From the NCBI GenBank assembly GCA_021735655.1, contig JAIPGM010000003.1:1-64000 (forward strand): DNA of 64,000 nucleotides, given 5' to 3'. Positions 24,905-38,381 of the stretch are shown one piece after another. Position numbers and translations under genes: made by a program. Positions within the stretch are counted from its first letter, which is position 1. Each line of letters starts with the position of its first letter. Source of the stretch: Candidatus Omnitrophota bacterium. Its GTDB lineage: Bacteria; Omnitrophota; Gorgyraeia; Duberdicusellales; 4484-171. The notes under the pieces are model-generated. The model ran no database searches and had not been told where the DNA came from. It saw only the letters and a list, made by a program, of their open reading frames with translations.

Positions 24905-25891
24905 GTGGGATTCAAGATACTTTTAGTTGGTTGTGGGCAATTAGGCAGTAGGCATCTTCAGGCTATAGCTTCCTTGAAAAATGTGACTGAGATCTGTGTT
25001 GTTGATTCTAGCCAGGAATCTCTTGATAGAAGCAAAGCCCGTTTGGGCCAGATAGATGATCTTAATCCTGAGATAGACTTTCAATGGTTTAAGGAGATTG
25101 ATTATTCCTGGACTGCTGGAGATCTTTGCATTATCGCTACTCAAGCCAAGGGCCGTTGTCAATTACTTAAGCAAGTTGTCCAGGGTTTGGGATATGAGAG
25201 ATTCCTGATAGAGAAAATAGTATCTCAGTCAGTAGAGGAGTATGAAGACTTACTTTCCTTTTGCAAAGAAAAAAATGTCTCGGTATGGGTTAATTGTAAG
25301 ACTCGCACCTATGAGATTCATAAATATATAAAATCAAAACTTAAATCTAGTGAGCCGATAATTTTCAGCGCCATAGGTGGCAATTATGGTTTGGCTAATA
25401 ATGGAGTTCATGTAGTTGATCTATTTGTTTTTTATGATCAGGCTACTAAATTATACAGTTGTGGCTCTAAGGTAGATGAAGTTTTGCACCCTTCAAAGCG
25501 CGGTCAGGACATTCTTGATCTCAGTGGTTCTCTTTTTGGGTATTCTGATAAGGCAAGCAAATTTATGCTTACCTTTGCCGCAGATCATATGAGTCCGGAT
25601 CACATTACTATTAATACTCCCCGTTGTCGTTTTATCGTTGATCATTTTCAGAAGTTTGCCTATGAGAGCTATTCAGATCAAGATTGGACTTGGAATAAAA
25701 TTCCAATCGAGGAAGAATGGAGAGTCAGTCATATGAGCAAGAAATTTGTATCGGATATATTAACTAAGGATACTTGTCAATTGCCTACAATCTTTGAATG
25801 TTTCTTAGCTCATGAATTTATTCTTAGAGGATTACTTTTGCATTTTAACCGTTTGCTAAAGGAAGAAAACTGGAGTTGTCCGGTTACTTAG
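24905..25891 (+). CDS. Gfo/Idh/MocA family oxidoreductase
   Basis: GTG start. ILLVGCGQLGSRHLQAI Rossmann N-terminus. Confidence 0.6.
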   Translation: MGFKILLVGCGQLGSRHLQAIASLKNVTEICVVDSSQESLDRSKARLGQIDDLNPEIDFQWFKEIDYSWTAGDLCIIATQAKGRCQLLKQVVQGLGYERFLIEKIVSQSVEEYEDLLSFCKEKNVSVWVNCKTRTYEIHKYIKSKLKSSEPIIFSAIGGNYGLANNGVHVVDLFVFYDQATKLYSCGSKVDEVLHPSKRGQDILDLSGSLFGYSDKASKFMLTFAADHMSPDHITINTPRCRFIVDHFQKFAYESYSDQDWTWNKIPIEEEWRVSHMSKKFVSDILTKDTCQLPTIFECFLAHEFILRGLLLHFNRLLKEENWSCPVT

Positions 25892-25897
25892 ATAATT

Positions 25898-26875
25898 ATG
25901 GCTAAAAAAATAAAAATAGGATTAATTGGCGCAGGAGCCGTTGCCTCTAAACATCTGGATGTGATTAAAGCTATTGATTGGATAGAAGCAGTAGGCATTA
26001 CCTCTCGGACTATAAGTAAGGCTGAAAAATTAGCCCAAGAATACGGAATCTCTTTTTGTACAGAAGATATAGATTATCTTATTGAGCAGTCAAAGCCGGA
26101 TGCTTTGATGGTGCTTGTTTCTGCTGACCAGATATATCCGGTAGCTTTAAATCTTATTTCTTATGGTTTACCTTTGTTTATTGAAAAACCAGCAGGCTTA
26201 ACTCCTGATGAGGCTAAAAACTTAGCTGAATTGGCAAAGAAACACTCTCTAGCAACTATGGTTGGTTACAATAGGCGTTATTATTCTGTTTTTCATAAAG
26301 GTCTTGAAATAATACGTAAACATGGGCCGCTTTTTGGTGTATTCATCGAAGGTCATGAGCGTATGTGGTTAAGGGCCGATAAATTATCAGAAAATATGCG
26401 TTCTCAATGGATTTTTTCTAATGGTACACATACCATTGATTTGCTTCGCTTTTTTGGAGGAGAAGTAACTAATTTACAGTCAATGGCTCATCGCTATATA
26501 GAGAGCCGGGGTGATCAATTTGCTGCGGTTATGGAATTAGCAAGTGGGGCAATTGGCCAGTATTGTGCCCACTGGTATTCACCGGGAGGCTGGAGAGTTG
26601 TTTTGTATGGTCAAGGAGCTACCGTTGAATTTAAACCTCTAGAAAGCGGCCAGTGGACAGATAAAGAATTTAAAACTTATTCAATTGAACCGGATAAAGT
26701 TGACACCGAATATAAACCGGGATTTTTCAGGCAGATGGAAGCCTTTGGAGGCTTAGTCGCTGAGGGTAAGTTTCAATGGCCTATGCTTGATTTAGAAGGA
26801 GCCTATAAAACTATGACTTTAGCAGAAGGTTTGTCATCTAATGTTTCTGATAAAAATTTAGTTTTGGAGAAATGA
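25898..26875 (+). CDS. Gfo/Idh/MocA family oxidoreductase
   Basis: IKIGLIGAGAVASKHL and EKP motif (LFIEKPAG). Confidence 0.7.
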   Translation: MAKKIKIGLIGAGAVASKHLDVIKAIDWIEAVGITSRTISKAEKLAQEYGISFCTEDIDYLIEQSKPDALMVLVSADQIYPVALNLISYGLPLFIEKPAGLTPDEAKNLAELAKKHSLATMVGYNRRYYSVFHKGLEIIRKHGPLFGVFIEGHERMWLRADKLSENMRSQWIFSNGTHTIDLLRFFGGEVTNLQSMAHRYIESRGDQFAAVMELASGAIGQYCAHWYSPGGWRVVLYGQGATVEFKPLESGQWTDKEFKTYSIEPDKVDTEYKPGFFRQMEAFGGLVAEGKFQWPMLDLEGAYKTMTLAEGLSSNVSDKNLVLEK

Positions 26876-26888
26876 AAAGGATAAGGAT

Positions 26889-27887
26889 ATGAAAGTTTTG
26901 TTTGTAGGTTTGGGCAGCATAGCTGGCCGCCATATTAAAAACATAAAAATTATTGATCAGGATATTCAGATTGCCCTTTGGCGTCAGTTATCCAAAGAGA
27001 CCGATTTAGGTGAAGTTGCCTCTTTAGTGAGCGAGGTGTTTTTTTCTGAAGCTGATGCTGTGGGATGGAAGCCAGATGTTGTTTTTGTGACTAATCCAGC
27101 ACCGAGACATTGTCAAACAGCATTAACTTTTGCCAGAAATAATTGTCATCTATTTATTGAGAAGCCTTTAGCGGTAAGCGAAGATGGTTTAGATGAATTG
27201 GCTAAAGAAGTAGCTAAGAGGAAATTAGTTGCAATGGTTGGTTATGTTTTGCGGTTTTCTGAGCCGATGAAAATAATGAAGGAGACAATTGGTAAAGGTT
27301 TAATTGGAAAGCCACTCTCAATAAGGGCTTCGGTTGGGCAAAACTTATTGGATTGGCGTCCTGGGAAAGATTATCAGGAAACTGTAAGCTCACGGAGTGA
27401 TTTAGGCGGCGGTGTATGTTTTGAATTGAGTCATGAAATTGATTATGTTCGCTGGCTCTTTGGTGAAGTTAAAGAATTGCGCGCTTTATTTGGAAAAGTA
27501 GGAGATCTTAATATAGATGTTGAGGACTTAGCTGATATTTTGCTTAAGTTTGATTCCGGAGCTTATGGCAATATTCATCTTGATATGGTAGATCAAGCTA
27601 AAGAGCGTTCTTGTCGGATTGTTGGCAGTAAAGGTACTTTGACGTGGGATAGCTGCGATGAAAATCGGGTTCGAGTATTTAAAGCTGATGAGGGCATTTG
27701 GCAGGATCTCTATTGTTCTCCTTCTGAGGATAGGAATGAAATGTATATAGCTCAGATTAAACATTTTTTTGATTGCATTGCTAATAATAAACAAGCTTTA
27801 GTTTCATTGGCTCAGGCAAGAAAGGTATTACAGATAGTGATAAATATAAAAAATTTAGAGAAAGACAAGAAGGCTATTCCAGTATGA
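26889..27887 (+). CDS. Gfo/Idh/MocA family oxidoreductase
   Basis: VLFVGLGSIAGRHI and LFIEKPLA. Confidence 0.7.
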   Translation: MKVLFVGLGSIAGRHIKNIKIIDQDIQIALWRQLSKETDLGEVASLVSEVFFSEADAVGWKPDVVFVTNPAPRHCQTALTFARNNCHLFIEKPLAVSEDGLDELAKEVAKRKLVAMVGYVLRFSEPMKIMKETIGKGLIGKPLSIRASVGQNLLDWRPGKDYQETVSSRSDLGGGVCFELSHEIDYVRWLFGEVKELRALFGKVGDLNIDVEDLADILLKFDSGAYGNIHLDMVDQAKERSCRIVGSKGTLTWDSCDENRVRVFKADEGIWQDLYCSPSEDRNEMYIAQIKHFFDCIANNKQALVSLAQARKVLQIVINIKNLEKDKKAIPV

Positions 27888-28594
27888 AACCGTATATACT
27901 CGGGGCTATCTTTGCTCGTGGTGGCTCAAAAGGTTTGCCTAAGAAAAATATAAGAGACTTAGCTGGTAAGCCTCTCATTGCTTATGCTATTGAAACAGGC
28001 AAAGAAATTTTATCTATTGACAGGCTTATAGTCTCAACTGATGACGAAGAAATAGCTAAAGTAGCAAAGGAGTACGGGGCCCAAGTACCTTTTATGCGGC
28101 CAAAGGAATTGGCAACTGATGATTCTCCGGAGTTGTTGTCATGGCAGCAAGCAATTAAGGCCATTGAAGCAGAGTCTAAGGACAAAGTGGATGTTTTGGT
28201 GGTTATACCTACAACTTCACCTTTGAGGGAAGCTGAAGATTTGCAGAATTGTCTTGATGCTTTATTGAATAGTGATGCTGATATTGTGGTAGCTGTAAAA
28301 GAAGCAGAAAGAAACCCTTACTTTAATATGTTAACGCTTGATAAAGATGGTTATGCCAATTTACCTATTGCAGATAAAGGAGCTTTTACTCATCGTCAGC
28401 TTGCACCTAAAGTTTACGATATGACAACTATTGCTTATGTTGCTAGAGCCGCATATATACTTGAGACTCCATCTGTTTTAGCTGGCAAGGTTAAGACGGT
28501 GATAGTACCTAGAGAACGGGCAATAGATATTGACGATATGATGGATTTTGAGATAGCAGAATTTCTTATGAAGAAGAGGAGAAATAGTAAATGA
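27884..28594 (+). CDS. CMP-nonulosonic acid synthetase (acylneuraminate cytidylyltransferase family)
   Basis: AIFARGGSKGLPKKN N-terminal motif. 236 aa. Confidence 0.8.
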   Translation: MKPYILGAIFARGGSKGLPKKNIRDLAGKPLIAYAIETGKEILSIDRLIVSTDDEEIAKVAKEYGAQVPFMRPKELATDDSPELLSWQQAIKAIEAESKDKVDVLVVIPTTSPLREAEDLQNCLDALLNSDADIVVAVKEAERNPYFNMLTLDKDGYANLPIADKGAFTHRQLAPKVYDMTTIAYVARAAYILETPSVLAGKVKTVIVPRERAIDIDDMMDFEIAEFLMKKRRNSK

Positions 28595-29397
28595 GAAGTT
28601 TAAAAGAGCTAATGGATTTAAAAAAGAGAACGGCTATAATCACTGGCGCGGCCGGTAACGTTGGATTTGCTTTGGCTGAAAGCTTAGCTGAATTAGGGGC
28701 TAATATTGTTTTGTTGGATATTAATAAGGAACAGGGACAAGCTAAGGCAGAAGATATAAAAAATACACACAAGGTAGAGACTTTATTCTTGCCTGTTGAT
28801 TTAGAAAATGAAAAAGAAATAACAGAGGTTCCTGAAATAGTAATTAATAAGTTTGGCTCAATTGATATTTTGATTAATTGTGCAGCTTTATTAGCAACTT
28901 CTGGCCTAGAGGGCTGGGCTGTTCCTTTTGAGAAGCAGAAAGTCGATTCTTGGCGCAGAGCTTTAGAGGTTAATTTGACTTCAGTTTTTCTTTTAACTCA
29001 AGGCTGCAGGCAGTATCTTATTGATAGTGGACATGGTTCAATTGTAAATATTGGCTCTATTTATGGAGTAGGTGGGCCAGACCTAAGGTTGTATGAGGGT
29101 GTAGAGAACTTAGGAAATCCGGCTGCTTATGCAGCTAGTAAGGGAGGACTTCTCCAGTTCACTCGTTGGTTGGCAACAGTACTTGCACCTTCGGTGCGGG
29201 TGAATTCAATCAGTCCGGGAGGCGTATTCAGGAAGCATGAGGACCCTTTTCTTTCTCGCTATATTGAACGTACTCCCTTGAAACGCATGGCTAAGGAAGA
29301 GGATTTAAAAGGGGCAGTTGCTTTTTTGGCAAGTGACCTTTCTTTATATGTAACTGGTCAAAATTTAATGGTCGATGGAGGCTGGAGCGCATGGTAG
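28591..29397 (+). CDS. short-chain dehydrogenase/reductase (classical SDR)
   Basis: TGAAGNVGFALA, NCAAL, YAASKGGLL. Ends DGGWSAW. Confidence 0.75.
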   Translation: MRSLKELMDLKKRTAIITGAAGNVGFALAESLAELGANIVLLDINKEQGQAKAEDIKNTHKVETLFLPVDLENEKEITEVPEIVINKFGSIDILINCAALLATSGLEGWAVPFEKQKVDSWRRALEVNLTSVFLLTQGCRQYLIDSGHGSIVNIGSIYGVGGPDLRLYEGVENLGNPAAYAASKGGLLQFTRWLATVLAPSVRVNSISPGGVFRKHEDPFLSRYIERTPLKRMAKEEDLKGAVAFLASDLSLYVTGQNLMVDGGWSAW

Positions 29398-30434
29398 ATA
29401 GACTTTGGGATAGGATTGTTAATCCTAATTCTGTTTTTGTAATTGCTGAAGCGGGTGTTAACCATAATGGAGACATTAACCTGGCAAAGCAATTAGTAGA
29501 CATGGCTATTGTTTCAGGAGCTGATGCAGTAAAGTTTCAGACTTTTTCTGCAGAGCGTTTAGTTATACCTTCAGCACCAAAAGCAGATTATCAAACTCAG
29601 ACAGACCCTAATTCTAAATCGCAGCTAGAAATGTTAGAGAAACTTCAGCTTTCCGAAGATGATTATCGTATTTTATACCAGTATTGCAAGGATAAAGGAA
29701 TCATTTTTTTATCAACGCCGTTTGACAAAGAGAGTGCAAACTTTTTAGAAGGCTTGGGTCTTGAAGTATTTAAAATACCTTCAGGTGAGATTACTAACAT
29801 TCCTTTACTTACCCATATAGCCACAAAGCAAAAACCAATGATTATTTCTACAGGAATGTCGACTTTAGATGAAGTGGAAGAAGCAGTTAGAGCTGTTAAT
29901 GATACCGGTAATAACAATATTGTGCTTTTGCATTGTGTAAGTAGCTATCCTGCAAAGTCAGAAGATGTTAATCTTAAAGCTATGCAAACCATGAGTCAGA
30001 AGCTAAATGTTCCTATTGGTTATTCTGACCACACCTTGGGATCTGATGTGGCTCTGGCTGCAGTTGCAATGAGTGCGGTAGTTATAGAGAAACATTTTAC
30101 TTTAGATAGGAATTTATCCGGTCCGGATCAGAAAAGTTCTCTTGAGCCGGCGGAATTTAAAGATTTAGTAGAAAGAATACATAAGATAAAGCTTGCCTTA
30201 GGAGATGGTGATAAAAAACCTGCCTCCAGCGAAGCCAATGTTGCTTCAGTAGCACGCAAAAGTCTTGTTGCTGGTTGCCACATAAAGGCTGGAACAATGC
30301 TAAGCGAAGGTTTGATTACTATAAAGCGGCCAGGTACAGGGCTTGCGCCTTCGATGGCTTCTTCTTTGGTTGGGCGAAAAGCAAAGGTTGATATACCTAA
30401 AGACGAACTTTTATCATTGGATATGTTGGTATGA
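29391..30434 (+). CDS. N-acetylneuraminate/legionaminate synthase family (NeuB/LegI-like)
   Basis: VIAEAGVNHNGD, DAVKFQTF and C-terminal SAF domain IKRPGTGL. Confidence 0.85.
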   Translation: MVDRLWDRIVNPNSVFVIAEAGVNHNGDINLAKQLVDMAIVSGADAVKFQTFSAERLVIPSAPKADYQTQTDPNSKSQLEMLEKLQLSEDDYRILYQYCKDKGIIFLSTPFDKESANFLEGLGLEVFKIPSGEITNIPLLTHIATKQKPMIISTGMSTLDEVEEAVRAVNDTGNNNIVLLHCVSSYPAKSEDVNLKAMQTMSQKLNVPIGYSDHTLGSDVALAAVAMSAVVIEKHFTLDRNLSGPDQKSSLEPAEFKDLVERIHKIKLALGDGDKKPASSEANVASVARKSLVAGCHIKAGTMLSEGLITIKRPGTGLAPSMASSLVGRKAKVDIPKDELLSLDMLV

Positions 30435-31597
30435 GAAAGATCGGTATTGTAACAAGCGGTAGGTGTGATTATGGAATCTACTTACCTATATTAAAGCAGA
30501 TCGTCGAGCATCCCGATCTAGAGCTGTTGCTTTATGTTACCGGTATGCATCTTGAGCCGGAGTTTGGTTTAACCTACAAAGATATAGAACAGGACGGCTT
30601 TAGCATAGATGAAAAAATAGAAATTTCCTTAAATTCCGATACCCCGATTGCTATATCAAAATCTGTTGGCCTTGGGGTTTCAGGATTTTCTAAAGCTTAC
30701 GATAAATTGAGACCTGATATTGTTGTTATCTTGGGGGATAGATTTGAGATTTTGAGTGCAGCCATAGCTTCTCACATAGCTCGAATTCCTATTGCTCATA
30801 TTCATGGAGGGGAAGTTACTCAGGGAGCGTTTGATGATGCTTTTAGGCATTCAATGACTAAAATGAGTCATTTGCATTTTACTTCCACCGAGGATTACCG
30901 AAGAAGAGTCATTCAACTAGGAGAATCTCCAGAAAGAGTGTTCAACGTAGGCGCCTTAGGGGTAGATAACATAAAAGGGTTAAAACTTCTCTCTAAAGAG
31001 GAGTTGGAAAAAGAGTTAGATTTTAAGTTTCAAAAACATAATTTACTAGTTACTTTCCATCCGGTTACTTTGGAATCCAATACATCGGAAAGTCAGTTTA
31101 AGAATTTACTTGATGCTTTAGATGAATTAGATCAGACCGGCATTATTCTTACTAAAGCCAATGCTGATGTTGGCGGTCGAGTAATCAATAAGATGATTGA
31201 TCAATATGTGAGCAAGAATTTTCAGAAAGCCAAAGTTTTTACCTCACTGGGAAATTTAAAGTATCTGTCAGTAATGCAGTTGGTTGATGCGGTTGTTGGA
31301 AATTCATCAAGTGGGATTATTGAAGCTTCAAGTTTTAAAATTGGAACCATAAATATCGGCGATCGACAAAAGGGAAGGGTTCGAACAGAAAGTATAATTG
31401 ATTGTGAACCGACGAAAGAGGCGATCGAAGTTTCTTTTAAGAAGCTTTATTCAAAAGAGTTTCAGCAGAGCCTTGCTTTGGTTGGTAGCCCTTATGGCGA
31501 TGGCGGCACGGCGAAAAGAATTATTGATATTTTAAAGAGCTTTGATAAGGAAGGTAGCTTAAAAAAGGCTTTTTATGATTTGGATTTTAAATATTGA
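30431..31597 (+). CDS. hydrolysing UDP/GDP-N-acetylhexosamine 2-epimerase (NeuC/LegG-like)
   Basis: KIGIVTSGRCDYGIYLPILKQI...VTGMHL pattern of the NeuC family. Confidence 0.8.
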   Translation: MRKIGIVTSGRCDYGIYLPILKQIVEHPDLELLLYVTGMHLEPEFGLTYKDIEQDGFSIDEKIEISLNSDTPIAISKSVGLGVSGFSKAYDKLRPDIVVILGDRFEILSAAIASHIARIPIAHIHGGEVTQGAFDDAFRHSMTKMSHLHFTSTEDYRRRVIQLGESPERVFNVGALGVDNIKGLKLLSKEELEKELDFKFQKHNLLVTFHPVTLESNTSESQFKNLLDALDELDQTGIILTKANADVGGRVINKMIDQYVSKNFQKAKVFTSLGNLKYLSVMQLVDAVVGNSSSGIIEASSFKIGTINIGDRQKGRVRTESIIDCEPTKEAIEVSFKKLYSKEFQQSLALVGSPYGDGGTAKRIIDILKSFDKEGSLKKAFYDLDFKY

Positions 31598-31612: not shown

Positions 31613-32266
31613 ATGATGGAAAAGATTATACTTATTGGCGGTGGCGGACATTGTAAGGTCATTATTGATGCTATTTTAAAAGGCAAGCAATATGAAATAG
31701 AAGGTATCATTGATCCAAATATAAGTATAGGTAAAAAGGTTTTAAATATTCCGGTAATCGGTAAGGATGATAATTTATTAGATATCTATAATCGGGGTAT
31801 TAAAAATGCTTTTATTGCTGTTGGTTCAATAGGTGACTTTTCAACAATAAGAAAAAGAGAAGAAATTTATCAGAAGCTTAAAATGATAGGATTTAGTTTG
31901 CCGATAATTGTTCATCCGGCGGCTGTTATTGCAGATGAGTGTTCGCTCGACGAAGGCATATTCGTCGCCGCTGGCGCAGTTATTAATTCAGGAACAAGAG
32001 TCGGAAAGAACACAATATTAAATACATTATCTTCTATTGACCATGATTGTCAGATTGCAGATTTTGTCCATATTGCTCCCGGTACCAATTTAAGCGGCGG
32101 GGTAACTATTGGCAAATTTACTCATATTGGAGTTGGTACAGTTGTTAACCAGGGAATTAATATAGGTTGTAATTGTTTAATCGGTTCAGGCAGCGTAGTG
32201 GTTAAAGATATCATTGATAATTTAAAAGCCTTTGGGAATCCTTGTAAAGCTATGGAGAAGAGATGA
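31613..32266 (+). CDS. NeuD/PglD-family sugar N-acetyltransferase (hexapeptide repeat)
   Basis: N-terminal IILIGGGGHCKVIID Rossmann-like part plus hexapeptide repeats (IGKFTHIGVGTVV). Confidence 0.7.
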   Translation: MMEKIILIGGGGHCKVIIDAILKGKQYEIEGIIDPNISIGKKVLNIPVIGKDDNLLDIYNRGIKNAFIAVGSIGDFSTIRKREEIYQKLKMIGFSLPIIVHPAAVIADECSLDEGIFVAAGAVINSGTRVGKNTILNTLSSIDHDCQIADFVHIAPGTNLSGGVTIGKFTHIGVGTVVNQGINIGCNCLIGSGSVVVKDIIDNLKAFGNPCKAMEKR

Positions 32267-33159
32267 TAAGAATTATACCGCGTCTTGATATTAAAGGTCC
32301 TAATCTAGTTAAAGGAGTTCACCTTGAGGGCCTTAGGGTTTTAGGCAAGGCTGAAGATTTTGCTTCAAAATATTATACTGATGGAGCCGACGAGCTTATT
32401 TATATTGATGTTGTTGCCAGTCTCTATGGTAGAGAAAATCTTTTAGAGATTGTAAGGAGAACAGCACAAAATATATTTATCCCTTTGACTGCCGGCGGTG
32501 GGATAAGGACAATTGACGATATAAAAGAATTATTACGAGCCGGCGCAGATAAGGTAGCAATAAATACTGCTGCCATACGAAATCCAGCCTTTATTAGTGA
32601 AGCTGCGAAAGTTTTTGGTTCGCAATGTATTGTTATTTCAATCGAGGCTAAATTTAGAAGTGAAGGTAAGTATGAGGCTTTAACTGATAATGGCAGGGAA
32701 AAAACTGATCGTGATGTGTTTGATTGGGTACAGGAGGCGGTTGGCCTTGGTGCCGGAGAACTGCTTATTACTAGTATTGATAAGGAAGGTACTGGTAGAG
32801 GATATGATTTGAAGCTAATTAAGAGAATTTCAGAGTCAGTGCCAGTCCCGGTTATTGCCTGTGGCGGTGCTGGAAAGACTAAGCATTTTCTTGAAGTCAT
32901 TGAAGACGGTTGCGCCGACGCTATAAGTGCTGCTTCTATTTTTCATTATCATTGTCTAGAAAAGTTGCGCTCCGTTGAAAATTTTAAAGAAGAAGGTAAT
33001 GTTGAGTTCATTAGCCAGAATAGAGAATCATTAGATTTCATGAAAAAGCGGCTTGAACCAGTGGATATTTTAGCTGTTAAAAGATATTTATCTGATTTTG
33101 GTATTGCCTGTAGAGCCATAGAGGCGTTTAGAGAAGTTACAAAAGCAGAAAAGATATGA
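32263..33159 (+). CDS. imidazole glycerol phosphate synthase cyclase-subunit paralog (HisF-like, WbuZ-type)
   Basis: IIPRLDIKGPNLVKGV...GADELIYIDV...TAGGGIR. Confidence 0.8.
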   Translation: MIRIIPRLDIKGPNLVKGVHLEGLRVLGKAEDFASKYYTDGADELIYIDVVASLYGRENLLEIVRRTAQNIFIPLTAGGGIRTIDDIKELLRAGADKVAINTAAIRNPAFISEAAKVFGSQCIVISIEAKFRSEGKYEALTDNGREKTDRDVFDWVQEAVGLGAGELLITSIDKEGTGRGYDLKLIKRISESVPVPVIACGGAGKTKHFLEVIEDGCADAISAASIFHYHCLEKLRSVENFKEEGNVEFISQNRESLDFMKKRLEPVDILAVKRYLSDFGIACRAIEAFREVTKAEKI

Positions 33160-33848
33160 AAGGATCAAAGCCGATTACTGTGATAGTTGATTATGGAATG
33201 GGCAATCTTTTCAGTCTAGAGAGAGTGATAAGACATCTTGGCGGGACTGCAGTTATATCTTCCGACCCGGAAACTATAGCTTCTGCTGAGCGGGTTATTT
33301 TACCTGGGGTAGGTGCTTTTGGTGATGGTATGGATAAGATAAAAAATCGGGAGTTGGTTGCGCCGATACAAAGAGCTATTGATTCGGGTAAGCCGTTTCT
33401 AGGGATATGTTTAGGCATGCAGCTTCTTATGACCGAGAGTGAAGAGTTTGGTGTTCATGGAGGATTAGATGTTATTTCTGGGTCTGTGCGTAGGTTTTTT
33501 GATTCCAAGGGTGATAAGGCGTCCTATAAGATACCACACGTTGGATGGAACCGCTTGCTTGCTCCTAAGATAGTTGAATTCGGCCAGCCAGTTTCTTGCG
33601 AGGGAAGTAATAAATTTTGGGAGGATACTATTTTAAATACAACTCAAGAGGGTGAATTTGTGTATTTTGTGCATTCGTATACCGTTACCCCTCAGAACCC
33701 TGAGCATATTCTTGCTGAGACTGAATATGGTCAGTCTCGTTTTTGCTCGGCAATACGTTCCAACAATGTGTTTGGCTGCCAGTTTCATCCTGAGGTAAGT
33801 GCGAATGTAGGTTTACGAATCTTAAAAGAGTTTTTATATACTGTTTAA
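33156..33848 (+). CDS. glutamine amidotransferase HisH-like (WbuY-type)
   Basis: VDYGMGNLFS, LPGVGAFG, GICLGMQLL. A class I GATase. Confidence 0.8.
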   Translation: MKGSKPITVIVDYGMGNLFSLERVIRHLGGTAVISSDPETIASAERVILPGVGAFGDGMDKIKNRELVAPIQRAIDSGKPFLGICLGMQLLMTESEEFGVHGGLDVISGSVRRFFDSKGDKASYKIPHVGWNRLLAPKIVEFGQPVSCEGSNKFWEDTILNTTQEGEFVYFVHSYTVTPQNPEHILAETEYGQSRFCSAIRSNNVFGCQFHPEVSANVGLRILKEFLYTV

Positions 33849-33887
33849 GTTTACAAATAGGATTTTTGGCTAGAGAAAGGAGTAATA

Positions 33888-35087
33888 ATGTTATTTCCAG
33901 GAAAAACCTTAGATCGACAGTTGGCAAAAAGCCCCAAAGAGGTTAAATATTGTACAAAGTGCGTGGTTTCAAATCAAAGACCAAGAATTACCTTTGATGA
34001 AAATGGAGTCTGCAGTGCATGTAATTATGCTTATCTTAAGCATAATAAGATTGATTGGGCTAAAAGAGAGAAAATGCTGTTGGAGTTGCTTGATAAGCAT
34101 AGGTCCAGTGATGGAAGTTATGATTGCGTTGTTCCTGGTTCCGGCGGAAAGGATAGTAGTTATGTTGCGCATCAATTGAAATATAAATATCAGATGCACC
34201 CACTTACTGTAACTTGGGCACCTTTTATTTACACAGACGTTGGCTGGCAGAATTATATCGCCTTTAAAGATCATGGGTTTAATAATCTTTTGTGTTTTCC
34301 TGACGGAATAATCCATCGTAAATTAGCTCGTCTTAGTTTTGAATTGTTAGGTGATGCCTGGGAGCCTTTTGCTTATGGGCAAAAGGCATATGCTTTCCAT
34401 ATTGCTACTAAGTTCAAGATTCCTTTAATTTTTTATGGCGAAAGCGGTGAAGTAGAATATGGGGGCTCAACTACTTATATAGATAGTCCGGTAGAGCCAA
34501 CCGATAACTATAGCGAAGTTTATTATAAGGGCTCCGGGGTTGATGAAATTATAAAACATGGTCAAGATGTGGGACTGTTTAGCGAAGAAGAAGTAAAGAG
34601 TAATCCTTTTCAATTTTATCGGATGCCTCCACTTGAGGATGTAGAGAAACTTAAACCACAGATGCACTGGTTTTCTTTTTATAAAAAATGGGTGCCACAG
34701 GAGAATTATTACTACTCTGTTGATCATACTGGTTTTCAAGCAAATTTCGATGGGCGCTCAGAAGGTACCTATTCCAAATATGCTAGCTTAGATGATAAAA
34801 CTGACGGATTCCATTTTTATTTGGCATATATCAAGTTTGGTATTGCCCGAGCTACATCAGATGCTGCGCATGAAATCAGAGACGGGCATCTAACCAGAGA
34901 AGAAGGGGTAGCCTTGGTTCATCGTTACGATGGTGAACTTCCTAAAAAATATTTTAAGGAATTTCTTGAGTATTTAGATATTAAAGAAGAGCAATTCTGG
35001 GAAGTTATTGATTTTTATCGTTCACTTTCTCCCCATCTTTGGGAAAAAATAAATGGTGAATGGAAACTCAAACATAAAGTATTTTGA
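33888..35087 (+). CDS. N-acetyl sugar amidotransferase (PP-loop; WbuX/PseA/LfnA family)
   Basis: CxxC N-terminal Zn-ribbon-like motif (CTKC...CSAC). PP-loop VVPGSGGKDSSYVA. Confidence 0.75.
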   Translation: MLFPGKTLDRQLAKSPKEVKYCTKCVVSNQRPRITFDENGVCSACNYAYLKHNKIDWAKREKMLLELLDKHRSSDGSYDCVVPGSGGKDSSYVAHQLKYKYQMHPLTVTWAPFIYTDVGWQNYIAFKDHGFNNLLCFPDGIIHRKLARLSFELLGDAWEPFAYGQKAYAFHIATKFKIPLIFYGESGEVEYGGSTTYIDSPVEPTDNYSEVYYKGSGVDEIIKHGQDVGLFSEEEVKSNPFQFYRMPPLEDVEKLKPQMHWFSFYKKWVPQENYYYSVDHTGFQANFDGRSEGTYSKYASLDDKTDGFHFYLAYIKFGIARATSDAAHEIRDGHLTREEGVALVHRYDGELPKKYFKEFLEYLDIKEEQFWEVIDFYRSLSPHLWEKINGEWKLKHKVF

Positions 35088-35115
35088 AGGTTGAGGATAG
35101 TAAGAAGGATTTAAA

Positions 35116-36195
35116 ATGAAAGACATAAAAAAAATATTTGTAACTAGTAACAATACGATTGAAGAAACTTTAGCTGTTATCCAGCGTGGAGGTGTGGGCA
35201 TAGCTTTGGTTGTAGATAACCAGCAGCATCTAGTTGGCACAATAACTGATGGAGATATCCGTAGGGCTATTTTGAACAAAATCCCTTTAAGTAAAAAAAT
35301 CACTGTCTTGTTTGATTATCGTCCTGAAGACTACCCAGTCCCGGTTTCAATGCCTCATGACATAACTCGTGAAGAGCTCATTGAGATTATGAGTGAGAAA
35401 AAACTAAATCAAATACCGCTCCTCGATAGCGATTCCCACATCGTAGAACTAGCTTTACTTTCGGAGCTTGTCGAAGAAGAGCTTAACTTGCCGGTTAGAG
35501 CAGTAGTTATGGCTGGCGGAAAGGGGCAGCGGTTGCACCCGCTTACTAAAGATACACCAAAACCGATGCTTCTTTTAGAAGATCGTCCCTTGGTGGAACG
35601 TACCATAGCCCAGCTGCGTAGATCAGGAATTACAAAAGTAAATATTTCTACTCATTACAAATCTGATGTGATTATAAAACATTTTGGTAAAGGAGATGCT
35701 TTTGGTGTAGATATTGATTATATTAATGAAGATCAACCATTGGGTACTGCTGGAGCTTTGGGATTAATGAAACCCATTGATGAACCGACTTTAGTTATCA
35801 ATGGAGATGTGTTAACTAAATTAGATTTTCGTAGGTTGCTTGATTTCCATCGCCATCATGATGCGATAATGACTGTAGGGGTGCGCAAGTGCGAGATAGA
35901 GATACCTTACGGAGTTATTGATATTGATGATGTAGTCGTAAAAAAGATTATTGAAAAACCAGTAAAGAATTTTATTGTTAATGCCGGAATTTATTTGTTA
36001 GGACCAATAGCCTATAAGTATATTCCCAAAAATATAAATTTTGATATGACCGATTTAGTTGATGAGTTACTAAAAGCTAAGCATAAAGTAGTCTGCTTTC
36101 CGATACAGGAGTATTGGCTTGACATAGGACATCCTGAAAATTATGAACAAGCAAAGGAGGACATTAAGAATGGCGCACTTCAGCTGGAAAAATAA
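35116..36195 (+). CDS. CBS-domain-containing sugar-1-phosphate nucleotidyltransferase
   Basis: N-terminal CBS pair (GIALVVDNQQHLVGTITDGDIRR), then AVVMAGGKGQRL. Confidence 0.7.
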   Translation: MKDIKKIFVTSNNTIEETLAVIQRGGVGIALVVDNQQHLVGTITDGDIRRAILNKIPLSKKITVLFDYRPEDYPVPVSMPHDITREELIEIMSEKKLNQIPLLDSDSHIVELALLSELVEEELNLPVRAVVMAGGKGQRLHPLTKDTPKPMLLLEDRPLVERTIAQLRRSGITKVNISTHYKSDVIIKHFGKGDAFGVDIDYINEDQPLGTAGALGLMKPIDEPTLVINGDVLTKLDFRRLLDFHRHHDAIMTVGVRKCEIEIPYGVIDIDDVVVKKIIEKPVKNFIVNAGIYLLGPIAYKYIPKNINFDMTDLVDELLKAKHKVVCFPIQEYWLDIGHPENYEQAKEDIKNGALQLEK

Positions 36196-37171
36196 AAAAG
36201 TTTTTGTTACCGGTGCCGGAGGATTTATCGGAAGTCACTTGTGTGAATGTTTAGTTAAGCTAGGCGCAAAGGTAAAGGCAATGGCAGAGTATAACTCCTT
36301 GGGAAGATGGGGTTGGCTTGATTATTCTAGTTTACATGATGAAATGGATATTTTTTTAGGCGATATCAGAGATAGAGACAGCACCAGAGAAGCTGTTAAG
36401 GGCCAGGATATGGTTTTTCACCTAGCGGCTCTTATAGGTATACCTTATTCTTATATAGCTCCAGCTTCATATATTGAAACTAATATAGCTGGCACTCTTA
36501 ATTTATTGCAAGCAGCAAGAGAGTATGATATCGAATGTTTTTTACAGACCTCAACTAGTGAGACTTATGGAACCGCTCAATATACCCCTATTGATGAAAA
36601 GCATCAACTTCAGGGTCAATCTCCTTATTCAGCTTCGAAAATAGGTGCAGACAAAATGGCAGAGAGTTTTTATCGTTCTTTCAAAGTTCCGGTAGTAACG
36701 GTTAGGCCTTTTAATACCTATGGCCCCAGACAGTCTGCCCGGGCAGTTATACCTACAATTATTACACAAATTTTAGAAAAAGATAAAGTCTGCATTGGTT
36801 CGCTTGCTCCCAGGCGTGATTTGACCTATGTCCAGGATATTGCCTTAGCCTTCATTGGTGCAGCCCAGGCAGGCAAATCTGCCTTTGGTGAAGTGTTTAA
36901 TGTTGGCTCGGGAAAGTCAATATCTATAGGTGAATTAGCCCAAGTGATTGCTAAGCTTATTGGAAAAGAGGTACCCGTAGAAAGCAGTTGCCAGCGTATA
37001 AGGCCAGAGGCTAGTGAAGTAATGTTGTTGATGGCAGATAGTAGTAAAGCTAAAAAAATATTTGGGTGGGAACCAAGCCTTTCTCTAGAAGAAGGACTCA
37101 AGAAAACAATTGAATGGTTTAAGGATAAGGATAATTTAAAGTTATATAAAAATGACCGTTATGTAGTATAA
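36170..37171 (+). CDS. NAD-dependent nucleotide-sugar 4,6-dehydratase (LegB-like extended SDR)
   Basis: VFVTGAGGFIGSH, YSASK. Start chosen at ATG 36170 (AAGGAGG RBS at 36154-36160). The ORF-track ATG at 36143 would overlap the upstream gene further. Confidence 0.6.
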   Translation: MAHFSWKNKKVFVTGAGGFIGSHLCECLVKLGAKVKAMAEYNSLGRWGWLDYSSLHDEMDIFLGDIRDRDSTREAVKGQDMVFHLAALIGIPYSYIAPASYIETNIAGTLNLLQAAREYDIECFLQTSTSETYGTAQYTPIDEKHQLQGQSPYSASKIGADKMAESFYRSFKVPVVTVRPFNTYGPRQSARAVIPTIITQILEKDKVCIGSLAPRRDLTYVQDIALAFIGAAQAGKSAFGEVFNVGSGKSISIGELAQVIAKLIGKEVPVESSCQRIRPEASEVMLLMADSSKAKKIFGWEPSLSLEEGLKKTIEWFKDKDNLKLYKNDRYVV

Positions 37172-37181
37172 GGTTAAAACA

Positions 37182-38381
37182 ATGAGCTCTATGAATAAAA
37201 AAATTACTGTCAGTACATCAATTAATGACTTAATTCCTTTAAGCGTTCCTGAAATTAAGGGTAATGAATGGAAATATATAAAGGAGTGCCTAGATACCAA
37301 TTGGGTTTCATCAGTAGGAAGTTATGTTGATCAATTTGAAAATGCTGTAGCTGATTATGTTGGGCGCGGTTATGGTGTAGCTTGTGTTAATGGTACATCA
37401 GCCTTGCATGTAGCTCTTTTACTTTCGGGTATAAAATCTCAAGAGGAAGTTTTACTTCCGGCGCTTACCTTTGTCGCACCGGCCAATGCTATTTGCTATA
37501 CTGGGGCAAAGCCAGTTTTTATTGACGTTGATCTTGATAATTGGCAAATAGATACAGGAAAGATTTTAGGGTTTTTGAAAAAAGAGTGTAAATATCAAAA
37601 AGGAAAGTTAATTAATAAGAATACCGGTAGAGTAATTAAAGCAATAATGCCTGTGCATATACTAGGACACCCGGCTGATATGGACGCTATCATGAGCATT
37701 GCCCGAAAATATAAACTAAAAGTTATTGAAGATGCTGCTGAAGGATTAGGGTCAGCCTATAAAAATCGACCTCTGGGAATTTCAGGAGATATTGCTTGTT
37801 TTAGCTTTAATGGAAACAAGATATTAACTACTGGCGGCGGAGGTATGGTTGTTGTTGATAAAAAATCCTGGTCTGATCGGGCCCGTTATCTTATAACTCA
37901 AGCCCGGAATAATGTCTTAGAGAATATTCACAATGAAATTGGCTACAATTACCGCCTGACCAATATTCAAGCTGCTATGGGTTTTGCCCAGATGGAGCAA
38001 CTCGATAAATTTGTTGAGAAAAAGAGAGATATTGCTCGTCGATATAATGAGCAATTAAAAGATGTACCGGGAATCGGCTTACCAAAAGAAGCTTCCTGGG
38101 CTAAATCCAATTACTGGCTATATACAATCTTTGTTGACAGAGCTAAATATAGAATTGATAGCAGAGCTTTATTAGAAAAACTAAAAAGATCTAATATCCA
38201 GACTCGGCCTCTGTGGCACCCTTTACATTCCCTAAAGCCGTTTAAAAAGTGTTTTTCTTACAAGATAAAAGTAGCCAATAAATTGTATAAAAATTGTTTG
38301 AGCTTGCCTTCATCAGTAGGGCTTACCAAGAGCGATCAAAAGAAAGTCATCGACATTATAAAACGCAGTAGGAGCTTGTAA
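37182..38381 (+). CDS. DegT/DnrJ/EryC1 family PLP-dependent sugar aminotransferase (LegC-like)
   Basis: NGTSALHVAL and FSFNGNKILTTGGGG, with Lys present. Confidence 0.8.
   Translation: MSSMNKKITVSTSINDLIPLSVPEIKGNEWKYIKECLDTNWVSSVGSYVDQFENAVADYVGRGYGVACVNGTSALHVALLLSGIKSQEEVLLPALTFVAPANAICYTGAKPVFIDVDLDNWQIDTGKILGFLKKECKYQKGKLINKNTGRVIKAIMPVHILGHPADMDAIMSIARKYKLKVIEDAAEGLGSAYKNRPLGISGDIACFSFNGNKILTTGGGGMVVVDKKSWSDRARYLITQARNNVLENIHNEIGYNYRLTNIQAAMGFAQMEQLDKFVEKKRDIARRYNEQLKDVPGIGLPKEASWAKSNYWLYTIFVDRAKYRIDSRALLEKLKRSNIQTRPLWHPLHSLKPFKKCFSYKIKVANKLYKNCLSLPSSVGLTKSDQKKVIDIIKRSRSL

What the first reader, a model, noticed from the sequence alone, without database searches (positions are those of the whole stretch)
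24905..38381. Legionaminic-acid-type nonulosonic acid pathway with an acetamidino-forming WbuX/Y/Z trio
The window contains NeuB/LegI (29391), hydrolysing NeuC/LegG (30431) and a NeuD/PglD-type acetyltransferase (31613). It also has a CBS-domain nucleotidyltransferase (35116) of the kind used for GDP-GlcNAc in the Campylobacter legionaminic pathway. A 4,6-dehydratase (36170), an aminotransferase (37182) and a CMP-NulO synthetase (27884) complete the core. Between them sit HisF-like (32263), HisH-like (33156) and a PP-loop amidotransferase (33888). Established knowledge: that trio (WbuZ/WbuY/WbuX, PseA family) converts an N-acetyl group into an acetamidino group, as in Leg5Am7Ac of Legionella and C. 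coli. Inference: the locus makes a CMP-5-acetamidino-legionaminic-acid-like sugar. Three tandem Gfo/Idh/MocA oxidoreductases and an SDR are coupled to it, which may add a further oxidation or epimerisation.
Basis: partly seen in the sequence, partly recalled or inferred. Interest (0 to 1): 0.55.

Follow-up and report, generated by a model that had tools for sequence, protein, structure and literature searches.

The report
Legionaminic-type sugar pathway with amidotransferase trio
This stretch of an uncultured Omnitrophota genome encodes a standard pathway for a bacterial sialic-acid-like sugar (legionaminic type) plus three enzymes that probably turn one N-acetyl group into a charged acetamidino group. 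The same arrangement occurs in dozens of other genomes, so it is a correct but fairly ordinary finding.

Summary
All 14 genes sit at the stated coordinates, co-directional and tightly packed, with strong family matches. These are LegB- and LegC-type enzymes, a PglD/NeuD acetyltransferase, a hydrolysing NeuC-type 2-epimerase, a NeuB-type synthase, a CMP-sugar synthetase and a CBS-nucleotidyltransferase. A HisF-like/HisH-like/WbuX trio sits in the middle.

Neither refutation condition is met. The genes score as Leg-type, not Pse-type, and no PseG or PseH is present. The HisF-like protein has Glu in place of HisF's catalytic Asp130, as do nearly all WbuX-adjacent copies in 80 other genomes.

WbuX is 49% identical to the Legionella pneumophila N-acetyl sugar amidotransferase (PDB 8WEX). 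It keeps that enzyme's zinc-binding Cys4 motif and PP-loop.

The source is a Candidatus Omnitrophota genome assembled from a metagenome. The same trio-in-NulO-cluster layout recurs across many phyla.

One refinement is needed. Only the third Gfo/Idh/MocA gene and the SDR belong to a known Leg-cluster triad (ptmF-legF-ptmA, or elaA-elaB-elaC, which is linked to C8 epimerisation). The first two Gfo genes form a separable pair of unknown role.

Stereochemistry and the amidinated position cannot be read from sequence. I rate this a new member of a known kind, of modest interest.

The parts
24905..25891 (+). Gfo1: divergent Gfo/Idh/MocA oxidoreductase, first member of a conserved Gfo1-Gfo2 pair. 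Its role is unknown and its membership of the Leg module is uncertain.
   Evidence: Pfam GFO_IDH_MocA 26.8 bits. Motifs GCGQLG, EKI103 and H169VVD are present. The family has about 360 proteins. It is paired with a Gfo2 homologue in L002, L005-8, L082 and L084-86. L082 and L083 have no NeuB within 10 kb.
25898..26875 (+). Gfo2: Gfo/Idh/MocA oxidoreductase, partner of Gfo1.
   Evidence: Pfam 77.9 bits plus the C3 domain. EKP96 and H178TID are present. It always lies directly downstream of Gfo1 homologues.
26889..27887 (+). Gfo3: PtmF/ElaA-like Gfo/Idh/MocA oxidoreductase, first gene of the Gfo-CMP synthetase-SDR triad.
   Evidence: Pfam match. The best PDB hit is 3EZY, the search model used for ElaA. 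Lys92 (EKP) and His182 (HEID) match the ElaA catalytic residues K91 and H181. The triad is present in 21 of 56 related loci.
27884..28594 (+). CMP-nonulosonate synthetase (LegF/ElaB-like).
   Evidence: CTP_transf_3 87.8 bits. The PseF model gives 153 bits, below its 205.7 cut-off. PDB hits are NeuA 9FTB and PseF 6IFD. A DxD is present at 215-217.
28591..29397 (+). SDR oxidoreductase (PtmA/ElaC-like).
   Evidence: adh_short_C2 171.6 bits. The best NCBIfam hit is PRK09186 at 190 bits (cut-off 255); the PtmA equivalog gives 133.5 bits (cut-off 350). The best PDB hit is 6UH2, the ElaC search model. TGAAGNVG and Y180xxxK are present.
29391..30434 (+). Nonulosonic acid synthase (LegI/NeuB type) with a SAF domain.
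   Evidence: TIGR03569 466 bits (cut-off 399.65), against PseI 304 bits (cut-off 340). The best PDB hit is B. subtilis SpsE, 1VLI.
30431..31597 (+). Hydrolysing NDP-sugar 2-epimerase (LegG/NeuC type).
   Evidence: TIGR03568 483 bits (cut-off 235.9), against wecB 77 bits.
31613..32266 (+). PglD/NeuD-type N-acetyltransferase (the LegH step).
   Evidence: TIGR03570 206 bits (cut-off 160.8). PglD_N plus Hexapep domains are present.
32263..33159 (+). HisF-like (beta/alpha)8 barrel (WbuZ role) with a C-terminal extension of about 50 aa. Presumed glutaminase activator and ammonia channel.
   Evidence: hisF 283 bits (cut-off 294.55) and WbuZ 281 bits (cut-off 299.7). Asp9 is kept, and Glu128 replaces HisF Asp130. 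Its stop overlaps the HisH start.
33156..33848 (+). HisH-like class-I glutamine amidotransferase (WbuY role).
   Evidence: TIGR01855 196 bits. The nucleophile Cys85 lies in GICLG, and a C-terminal H-P-E is present.
33888..35087 (+). N-acetyl sugar amidotransferase (NASAT; WbuX/PseA/PtmG family).
   Evidence: TIGR03573 342 bits (cut-off 203). PDB 8WEX (L. pneumophila NASAT) gives E 6e-98 and 49% identity over 373 aligned positions. Cys22/25/42/45 and the PP-loop S85GGKDS90 are present.
35116..36195 (+). CBS-domain sugar-1-phosphate nucleotidyltransferase (PtmE type).
   Evidence: CBS 40.9 bits plus NTP_transferase 143.8 bits. The best NCBIfam hit is mannose-1-P guanylyltransferase at 157 bits.
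36143..37171 (+). NAD-dependent NDP-GlcNAc 4,6-dehydratase (LegB type). The likely start is 36170.
   Evidence: TIGR04180 443 bits (cut-off 475). The next family scores 166 bits and PseB 58 bits. GAGGFIG, T138SE and Y162xxxK are present.
37182..38381 (+). PLP aminotransferase (LegC type).
   Evidence: TIGR04181 489 bits (cut-off 420), against PseC 273 bits.
42092..44260 (+). Tentative: a protein from an orphan GT-B-fold family, candidate transferase for a cytidine-nucleotide-activated sugar.

Best explanation
Positions 26889-38381 form a GDP-type (Campylobacter-like) legionaminic-acid-family pathway with an embedded three-protein acetamidine-forming unit.

Inferred order of steps:
1. PtmE makes the NDP (probably GDP) hexosamine.
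2. LegB carries out the 4,6-dehydration.
3. LegC aminates C4.
4. The PglD/NeuD-type enzyme N-acetylates it.
5. The NeuC-type enzyme releases the nucleotide and epimerises C2.
6. NeuB/LegI condenses the product with PEP to give a 5,7-diacetamido-3,5,7,9-tetradeoxy-nonulosonate.
7. The cytidylyltransferase makes the CMP-sugar.
8. The WbuX-type PP-loop enzyme activates one acetamido carbonyl with ATP.
9. HisH hydrolyses glutamine, and the ammonia passes through or along the HisF-like barrel.
10. Ammonia displaces the activated oxygen to give an acetamidino group.

The Gfo3/SDR pair flanking the cytidylyltransferase is the ptmF/ptmA (elaA/elaC) module. It may invert C8 at the CMP-sugar stage.

Shown here: gene identities, motifs, synteny and conservation. 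Inferred: the order of steps, the nucleotide used, the stage and position of amidination, and the stereochemistry. The product probably goes into a surface polysaccharide, because Wzy-like, ABC-exporter and glycosyltransferase genes flank the module.
For: - Family scores place every core enzyme in Leg/Neu-type rather than Pse-type models.
- WbuX is 49% identical to the L. pneumophila NASAT of the Leg5Am7Ac-producing LPS locus, and it keeps the Zn-Cys4 and PP-loop motifs.
- PtmG and lpg0748 are linked in the literature to the conversion of CMP-Leg5Ac7Ac to CMP-Leg5Am7Ac, and lpg0749 is listed there as a HisF.
- Among 56 related loci of at least 15 kb, 54 have the HisF-like gene, 53 the HisH-like gene, 48 NeuB and 50 the CMP synthetase. 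45 have all four and 16 have a full Leg set.
- The HisH catalytic Cys and H-P-E are intact.
- HisF Asp130 is replaced throughout the WbuX-linked clade.
- The Gfo3-CMP synthetase-SDR order matches the P. shigelloides and C. jejuni ptm genes and A. baumannii elaABC. The catalytic residues sit at matching positions.
Against: - LegB scores 32 bits below its curated cut-off.
- The NeuB_NnaB model does not separate Neu from Leg synthases. Published active-site discriminators gave a mixed result: Gly at the Neu/Leg-versus-Pse position, but Ser where Leg enzymes were reported to have Tyr.
- No enzyme of the trio has been reconstituted in vitro in the papers read, so the HisH/HisF role rests on co-occurrence.
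- NASATs also act on hexosamines such as FucNAc and ManNAc3NAcA.
- The window encodes two more NeuB-like proteins and two more cytidylyltransferase domains, so several activated sugars are made here.
Confidence: 0.75

Rival explanations
1. The pathway and amidination are as above, but the final sugar is an epimer rather than legionaminic acid proper (for example 8-epi-Leg, as in 8eLeg5Am7Ac of Aliivibrio salmonicida, or a further isomer). Gfo3 would oxidise a hydroxyl of the CMP-sugar and the SDR would reduce it from the other face. Gfo1-Gfo2 might act on another centre.
For: - In A. baumannii, lgaABCDEFG gives Leg, while lgaABCDEF plus elaABC gives 8eLeg5Ac7Ac and plus aciABCD gives Aci.
- ElaA (Gfo/Idh/MocA) and ElaC (SDR) are proposed as the C8 oxidase and reductase.
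- Gfo3, the synthetase and the SDR share the ElaA/B/C search-model neighbours 3EZY, 6IFD and 6UH2, and their catalytic residues sit at matching positions.
- 8eLeg5Am7Ac exists in nature.
Against: - The same Gfo-synthetase-SDR triad (ptmF-legF-ptmA) is present in C. jejuni and P. shigelloides. There the sugar is reported as Leg and the two oxidoreductases are assigned to precursor supply.
- ElaA/ElaC activity is supported by structures, docking and mutants in the paper read, not by an enzyme assay.
- The SDR misses the PtmA equivalog cut-off (133 bits against 350).
Confidence: 0.35
2. The WbuX/HisH/HisF trio amidinates a different N-acetyl sugar of the same glycan, such as a 6-deoxy-hexosamine like FucNAc or QuiNAc. 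The nonulosonate stays di-N-acetylated.
For: - WbuX (E. coli O145) and WbpG (P. aeruginosa O5) act on FucNAc and ManNAc3NAcA.
- Acetimidoyl-modified UDP-HexNAc was reported in C. jejuni extracts.
- The window carries many other sugar pathways: rml genes, extra dehydratases and extra aminotransferases.
Against: - The trio sits between the Leg acetyltransferase and PtmE.
- 45 of 56 loci holding close relatives of this WbuX also carry NeuB and a CMP synthetase within 10 kb.
- The closest solved relative is the NASAT of the Legionella Leg5Am7Ac locus.
Confidence: 0.1
3. The HisF-like and HisH-like genes are the organism's histidine-biosynthesis imidazole glycerol phosphate synthase and lie in the glycan locus by chance.
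For: The hisF model scores 283 bits, only 11 bits under its cut-off. The HisH model is passed at 196 bits. The rest of the genome could not be searched for other copies.
Against: - No hisA, B, C, D, G or I gene is in the window.
- Glu replaces the catalytic Asp130, and the equivalent position is not Asp in all but one WbuX-adjacent copy.
- The order HisF-HisH-WbuX is conserved across phyla.
- Ten such neighbours all fall below both the hisF and the WbuZ cut-offs, so they behave as a clade of their own.
Confidence: 0.02
4. NeuB, NeuC and the cytidylyltransferase make CMP-Neu5Ac (true sialic acid) from UDP-GlcNAc. LegB/LegC/NeuD make a separate bacillosamine-type sugar.
For: The TIGR03569 and TIGR03568 models cover both Neu and Leg enzymes.
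Against: - The LegB, LegC, PglD-type and PtmE genes are contiguous with NeuB/NeuC and recur with them in 16 of 56 loci.
- This gene set is the published criterion for assigning a Leg pathway.
Confidence: 0.03

Closest known systems
Campylobacter jejuni/coli flagellin glycosylation genes Cj1319-Cj1332 (legB, legC, ptmG, ptmH, legI, legG, ptmE, ptmF, legF, ptmA)
   Same: The enzyme families are the same: LegB, LegC, a NeuB-type synthase, a NeuC-type hydrolysing epimerase, the CBS-nucleotidyltransferase PtmE, a Gfo-cytidylyltransferase-SDR triad, and a WbuX-family amidotransferase (PtmG) that gives CMP-Leg5Am7Ac.
   Different: - Here HisF-like and HisH-like genes lie directly upstream of the amidotransferase, and the acetyltransferase is inside the cluster.
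- There is no ptmH methyltransferase next to the trio and no Maf transferase.
- The context is a polysaccharide locus, not a flagellar one.
- The SDR does not reach the PtmA equivalog cut-off.
- No direct sequence comparison with the Cj proteins was possible.
Legionella pneumophila LPS locus lpg0748-lpg0753 (NASAT/ORF28, HisF lpg0749, NeuA, NeuB, NeuC)
   Same: A NASAT linked to Leg5Am7Ac formation lies next to a HisF homologue and NeuABC. It is 49% identical to the window protein and shares the Zn-Cys4 and PP-loop motifs.
   Different: Legionella starts from UDP-diNAcBac, and no PtmE-type gene is reported for that locus in the papers read. The window has PtmE, LegB and LegC, the features taken to indicate a GDP-linked route.
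Acinetobacter baumannii KL49 lgaABCDEF/elaABC (8-epi-legionaminic acid)
   Same: A Leg core is combined with a Gfo/Idh/MocA (ElaA), cytidylyltransferase (ElaB) and SDR (ElaC) triad. The catalytic Lys/His of ElaA and the DxD of ElaB sit at matching positions.
   Different: KL49 has no amidotransferase trio. The Ela structures were not in the PDB copy searched, so similarity is shown only through shared nearest neighbours.
E. coli O145 WbuX/WbuY/WbuZ and P. aeruginosa WbpG
   Same: The amidotransferase family (TIGR03573) is the same, and it associates with HisH/HisF-like partners.
   Different: Those enzymes are assigned to hexosamine substrates (L-FucNAc, ManNAc3NAcA). The window's HisF-like protein scores below the WbuZ equivalog cut-off (281 bits against 299.7).
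Aliivibrio salmonicida Leg cluster (8eLeg5Am7Ac)
   Same: This is a documented natural product that combines an acetamidino group with a Leg-family epimer. It is the chemistry this gene set would be expected to allow.
   Different: No sequence comparison was done. The gene content of that cluster was not read in detail.

Membership tests
Legionaminic acid (GDP-type) biosynthesis cluster | Non-inverting NAD-dependent NDP-GlcNAc 4,6-dehydratase (LegB) | tested here: inconclusive
   TIGR04180 gives 443.4 bits, 32 bits below the curated cut-off of 475. It is still far above the next family (166 bits) and PseB (58 bits). Retention at C5 cannot be tested from sequence.
Legionaminic acid (GDP-type) biosynthesis cluster | LegC-type aminotransferase | tested here: met
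   TIGR04181 gives 488.7 bits (cut-off 420), against PseC 273 bits (cut-off 423.5).
Legionaminic acid (GDP-type) biosynthesis cluster | Hydrolysing 2-epimerase (LegG/NeuC) present and PseG/PseH absent | tested here: met
   TIGR03568 gives 483 bits (cut-off 235.9). No PseG-type (GT28-like) or GNAT PseH-type hit was found among the 56 window ORFs of at least 100 aa.
Legionaminic acid (GDP-type) biosynthesis cluster | NeuB-family synthase of the Neu/Leg rather than Pse type | tested here: met
   TIGR03569 gives 465.9 bits (cut-off 399.65), against PseI 303.6 bits (cut-off 340.25). The sequence is KIPSGE, with Gly where Pse synthases have Phe. It has Ser at the N. meningitidis N184 position, where Leg enzymes were reported to have Tyr. 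The model does not separate Leg from Neu.
Legionaminic acid (GDP-type) biosynthesis cluster | PtmE-type CBS-nucleotidyltransferase, indicating a GDP-linked route | tested here: met
   The domain architecture CBS plus NTP_transferase is present. GTP specificity itself cannot be tested here.
Legionaminic acid (GDP-type) biosynthesis cluster | Product has the D-glycero-D-galacto configuration | not testable with these tools
   This needs NMR of the released sugar. The elaA/elaC-like pair makes an epimer possible.
N-acetyl sugar amidotransferase (NASAT; WbuX/PseA/PtmG, TIGR03573) | Family HMM above cut-off, PP-loop SGGxDS, and the CxxC...[GN]xCxxC zinc motif | tested here: met
   The HMM gives 342.3 bits (cut-off 203.2). 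S85GGKDS90 and Cys22/25/42/45 are present. The match to 8WEX has E 6e-98.
N-acetyl sugar amidotransferase (NASAT; WbuX/PseA/PtmG, TIGR03573) | Catalyses acetamido to acetamidino conversion on a CMP-nonulosonate | not testable with these tools
   Only genetic and metabolomic evidence for PtmG/PseA is cited in the literature read.
WbuZ (glycosyl amidation-associated HisF paralogue, TIGR03572) | Equivalog HMM above cut-off | tested here: not met
   The score is 280.7 bits against a cut-off of 299.7. Ten other WbuX-adjacent homologues also miss it, at 256-286 bits. The window protein works in the same context but is not an equivalog by this model.
Housekeeping imidazole glycerol phosphate synthase (HisF/HisH) | hisF equivalog score, catalytic Asp11 and Asp130, and a his-operon context | tested here: not met
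   hisF gives 283.3 bits (cut-off 294.55). The Asp130 position is Glu128. No other his genes are in the window.
ptmF-legF-ptmA / elaA-elaB-elaC triad | Contiguous Gfo/Idh/MocA, CTP_transf_3 and SDR genes with catalytic residues intact | tested here: met
   The gene order spans 26889-29397. K92/H182, D215xD217 and Y180xxxK184 are present. The triad occurs in 21 of 56 related loci.
ptmF-legF-ptmA / elaA-elaB-elaC triad | PtmA equivalog (NF050062) | tested here: not met
   The score is 133.5 bits against a cut-off of 350.

The most novel reading that the evidence does not exclude
The module, with its extra Gfo1-Gfo2 pair, may make a nonulosonate stereoisomer or oxidised derivative that carries an acetamidino group and has not yet been described. 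The 64-kb locus as a whole may build a glycan from three different cytidine-activated acids:
- a second synthase fused to an FAD oxidoreductase;
- a NeuB-like::cytidylyltransferase fusion;
- a set comprising a P-loop protein, a cytidylyltransferase, an AroB-type enzyme and an SDR, which could yield a carbocyclic or otherwise non-canonical CMP-linked unit.
Probability: 0.15. Interest if true: 0.6.

Novelty: new member of a known kind. Interest (0 to 1): 0.3.

Why it matters
An acetamidino group makes an otherwise acidic sugar net-neutral, so it changes the surface charge of the cell.

The finding shows that uncultured, very small Omnitrophota carry the full toolkit known from Campylobacter and Legionella. 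The WbuX/HisH/HisF-like trio is also among the most conserved parts of such loci: WbuX is 68-95% identical across phyla.

That conservation, together with the Glu-for-Asp130 signature in the HisF-like partner, gives a clean set of proteins for the first in vitro reconstitution of acetamidine formation. That reaction remains undescribed biochemically in the papers read. As a discovery in its own right the finding is modest.

Tried and rejected
- **Reciprocal best hits to Cj1319-1332 and lpg0746-0753.** The single genome-contig scan returned the 80 closest relatives, none from Campylobacter or Legionella. Only the L. pneumophila NASAT could be compared, through PDB 8WEX.
- **ElaA/B/C crystal structures.** They were not in the PDB copy. 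Only their search models matched.
- **NeuB active-site discriminators from PMC7371886.** They gave a mixed answer. PDB hits to SpsE, PseI and NeuB were equidistant, at 186-195 bits.
- **NCBIfam hisF versus WbuZ.** The models could not separate the two for this protein or for ten relatives.
- **Promoter/terminator scan of 22-42 kb.** Promoter-like sites (50 found, shuffles 59.4±7.4) did not exceed expectation and terminator-like sites (18 found, shuffles 13.0±2.9) barely did; none was taken as a unit boundary, so module boundaries cannot be set that way.
- **Rfam.** No match in the window.
- **Single-sequence AF2 of the 428-aa protein at 23608.** The model was unusable at pLDDT 41, so it was not fold-searched. 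phmmer against PDB found nothing meaningful.
- **My initial guess that the window was a Leptospira rfb locus.** This was wrong. The source is an Omnitrophota MAG.

Full report
**Observation.** They are separated by 0-40 bases or overlap. The gene calls on an identical public contig agree (Logan SRR12088349, 90,288 bp). Pfam and NCBIfam assign them as follows:

| Start | Assignment | Score |
|---|---|---|
| 24905, 25898, 26889 | Gfo/Idh/MocA | first one weak (26.8 bits) |
| 27884 | CTP_transf_3 cytidylyltransferase | 87.8 bits |
| 28591 | SDR | 171.6 bits |
| 29391 | NeuB_NnaB | 466 bits |
| 30431 | NeuC_NnaA | 483 bits |
| 31613 | NeuD/PglB/VioB acetyltransferase | 206 bits |
| 32263 | HisF-like | hisF 283, WbuZ 281 bits |
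| 33156 | HisH | 196 bits |
| 33888 | WbuX | 342 bits |
| 35116 | CBS + NTP_transferase | 40.9 + 143.8 bits |
| 36143/36170 | LegB | 443 bits |
| 37182 | LegC | 489 bits |

**Source.** The WbuX-like protein is 100% identical to a protein of an NCBI 'Candidatus Omnitrophica bacterium' MAG, on a contig of 278,835 bp. The closest species-level genome locus is L002, another Omnitrophota MAG. It is collinear over Gfo1 to the 722-aa protein, at 68-77% DNA identity.

**Leg versus Pse.**
- The dehydratase scores LegB 443 bits against PseB 58.
- The aminotransferase scores LegC 489 against PseC 273.
- The synthase scores NeuB_NnaB 466 against PseI 304.
- The 2-epimerase is of the hydrolysing NeuC type (483 bits, against wecB 77).
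- No PseG- or PseH-like protein is in the window.
- A PtmE-type CBS-nucleotidyltransferase is present. In the Tannerella work this, together with LegG and the absence of PseG, was the criterion for a GDP-linked Leg route.

Two weaknesses remain. LegB is 32 bits below its curated cut-off. The NeuB active-site markers proposed for Vibrionaceae are mixed here: Gly at the Neu/Leg position, but Ser where Leg enzymes were reported to have Tyr.

**The amidotransferase trio.** WbuX matches the crystal structure of the L. pneumophila N-acetyl sugar amidotransferase, 8WEX. The match has E 6e-98 and 49% identity over 373 aligned positions. It keeps the zinc-binding Cys4 motif (Cys22/25/42/45) and the PP-loop S85GGKDS90, which define the family. 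The literature links the family to Leg amidination in several ways:
- PtmG (Cj1324) is linked to conversion of CMP-Leg5Ac7Ac to CMP-Leg5Am7Ac.
- ORF28/lpg0748 of Legionella is its homologue.
- lpg0749 is listed as a HisF.
- A serogroup 6 Legionella locus has the order HisF-HisH-'LPS biosynthesis protein'.

The HisH-like protein keeps its nucleophile, Cys85 in GICLG, and a C-terminal H-P-E.

- No other his gene is in the window.
- The HisF-like protein keeps Asp9, but Glu128 sits at the position of HisF's catalytic Asp130.
- I read that position in 68 WbuX-adjacent HisF-like copies from 66 of the 80 related loci. It is Glu in 56; Gln, Cys, Ala or Gly in 11; and Asp in only one.
- More distant second copies in four loci instead keep that Asp but have Leu in place of Asp11.
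- The window protein and ten relatives all fall just below both the hisF and the WbuZ cut-offs, so they behave as a clade of their own.

The housekeeping reading is effectively excluded, although the rest of the genome could not be searched.

**How common is the arrangement?** A scan of one genome per species with this WbuX returned 80 loci. They come from Omnitrophota, Planctomycetes, Elusimicrobia, Chloroflexi, candidate-phyla-radiation groups, Bacteroidota (Pedobacter, Pontibacter, Taibaiella), Pseudomonas, Sphingorhabdus and archaea. Counts among the 56 loci of at least 15 kb:

| Feature | Loci |
|---|---|
| HisF-like gene | 54 |
| HisH-like gene | 53 |
| NeuB | 48 |
| CMP synthetase | 50 |
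| All four of the above | 45 |
| Full Leg set within 10 kb | 16 |
| Gfo3-synthetase-SDR triad | 21 |
| Two WbuX paralogues | 8 |

The sample is biased towards this WbuX subfamily. It still shows that the layout is widespread rather than special to this window.

**The oxidoreductases.** The three Gfo proteins are very divergent. Gfo2 and Gfo3 are 29% identical over 140 aa, and Gfo1 has no BLAST match to either. All three keep a Rossmann motif, the EK(P/I) lysine and an HxxD histidine.

Gfo3, the synthetase and the SDR form the triad known as ptmF-legF-ptmA in Campylobacter and Plesiomonas. In A. baumannii KL49 it is elaA-elaB-elaC, proposed to oxidise and re-reduce C8 of CMP-Leg5,7Ac2. Three observations support the correspondence:
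- Lys92 and His182 of Gfo3 match ElaA K91 and H181.
- D215xD217 of the synthetase matches ElaB D211 and D213.
- The nearest PDB neighbours are the very models used to solve ElaA, ElaB and ElaC.

In A. baumannii, plain Leg loci lack the two oxidoreductases and 8eLeg or Aci loci have them. C. jejuni has the triad and is reported to make Leg. Stereochemistry therefore stays open.

Gfo1 and Gfo2 are a separate two-gene module. With NulO and WbuX genes the pair occurs in L002, L005-L008, L085 and L086, and with NulO genes alone in L084 within the flank read. In L086 the order is the same as here, Gfo1-Gfo2-Gfo3-synthetase-SDR...NeuB-NeuC-HisF-HisH-WbuX-PtmE. In L082 the pair has no NeuB within 10 kb, and in L083 the same is true of Gfo1, followed there by a Shikimate_DH-like gene rather than Gfo2. 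Their role is unknown.

**Mechanism proposed.** This is inferred from the families:
1. PtmE activates the hexosamine.
2. LegB, LegC and the acetyltransferase give NDP-diNAcBac.
3. The NeuC-type enzyme gives 2,4-diacetamido-2,4,6-trideoxymannose.
4. NeuB adds PEP.
5. The cytidylyltransferase gives the CMP-sugar.
6. WbuX activates an acetamido oxygen with ATP, and ammonia from HisH, delivered via the HisF-like barrel, forms the amidine.

Work on Campylobacter suggests that amidination occurs at the CMP-sugar stage. Which nitrogen is modified cannot be read from sequence.

**Surroundings.** The module is one of several in the locus.
- Upstream lie a second NeuB fused to an FAD oxidoreductase, a Shikimate_DH-like protein, a NeuB-like::cytidylyltransferase fusion, an aminotransferase and an unknown 428-aa protein.
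- Downstream lie a P-loop protein, another cytidylyltransferase, an AroB-equivalog dehydroquinate synthase, an SDR and an orphan 722-aa protein.
- The 722-aa protein gives a confident AF2 model (pLDDT 90.3) with a GT-B fold. It is closest to the CDP-dependent polymerases TarL and TagF and to Bcs3, so it is a candidate transferase.
- Wzy-like, WecG, GT1, GT2 and ABC-exporter genes point to a surface polysaccharide. No Maf-type gene was seen.

**Verdict.** The finding is a new member of a known kind. Its interest lies mainly in the host lineage, in the clean signature of the HisF-like partner, and in the unexplained accessory genes around it.

Noticed in passing
window 1730-3697: The dTDP-glucose 4,6-dehydratase gene (rmlB) is interrupted by an insertion of about 335 aa that looks like an intein. 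The junctions read HLAAE|S84IPED...VVCHN418|T419HVD, and there are LAGLIDADG-like blocks (LAAYITEGN, LLEGDGTK). TIGR01181 matches in two stretches. Pfam Intein_splicing scores 31.9 bits, below its 35.8 cut-off.
   Followed up: partly
window 17191-19578: There is a second NeuB-type synthase, 44% identical to the one at 29391. It is fused to an N-terminal FAD/NAD(P) oxidoreductase that resembles UDP-galactopyranose mutase and amine oxidases. Roughly 30 full-length relatives (31-50% identity, about 780-830 aa) exist among 1.84 billion cluster representatives.
   Followed up: partly
window 19463-22423: A Shikimate_DH-like NAD-binding protein is followed by a divergent NeuB-like::cytidylyltransferase fusion of 587 aa. 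The same pair precedes an equivalent Leg/WbuX cluster in L086 (fusion 57% identical).
   Followed up: partly
window 38394-42025: This four-gene set comprises a P-loop protein (GQPGCGKT), a second CTP_transf_3 cytidylyltransferase, a dehydroquinate synthase that passes the aroB cut-off (318 bits against 305) and an SDR. It is conserved in L002. Partial sets with Gfo1, a Shikimate_DH-like gene and an HpcH aldolase occur in L083 and L087. It may be a pathway to another cytidine-activated unit.
   Followed up: partly
[not shown]
   Followed up: yes
window 23608-24894: This 428-aa protein has no family match. Weak homologues sit next to ABC exporters in L084 and L086. It contains an 'HP' motif reminiscent of bacterial sialyltransferases; that resemblance comes from my own recollection and was not tested. 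The AF2 single-sequence model failed.
   Followed up: partly
L015, L018, L026, L029, L052, L054, L067, L071: Eight related loci carry two WbuX paralogues, the second about 45% identical to the window protein. Two loci also duplicate HisF/HisH. This hints at sugars with two acetamidino groups or two substrates.
   Followed up: no
L085, L086: Relatives of the cluster carry a formyltransferase, with a polysaccharide deacetylase as well in L085. In L086 it lies next to NeuB in place of the NeuD-type gene (none seen within the flank); L085 keeps a PglD-type gene and has the two extra genes after PtmE. This suggests N-formyl variants.
   Followed up: no
window 30431-36195 versus L002: Similarity to the nearest relative is mosaic. 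NeuC to PtmE are 75-95% identical at protein level (WbuX 95%, HisF-like and PtmE 91%, HisH-like 75%), while NeuB is only 51% and the Gfo/synthetase/SDR genes 58-70%. This suggests exchange of sub-modules.
   Followed up: partly
window 4681-14273: This stretch holds split transketolase subunits, two B12-binding radical SAM enzymes, a GHMP kinase, a nucleotidyltransferase, a sugar-phosphate-isomerase-like TIM barrel and an aminotransferase. Part of the set recurs next to Gfo1-Gfo2 in a Coriobacteriia contig (L082). It may be a pathway for a branched or methylated sugar.
   Followed up: no
window 58502-62230: DmpF/DmpG-like acetaldehyde dehydrogenase and aldolase genes and a thiamine-diphosphate enzyme lie at the end of a glycan locus, which is an unusual context for them.
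   Followed up: no
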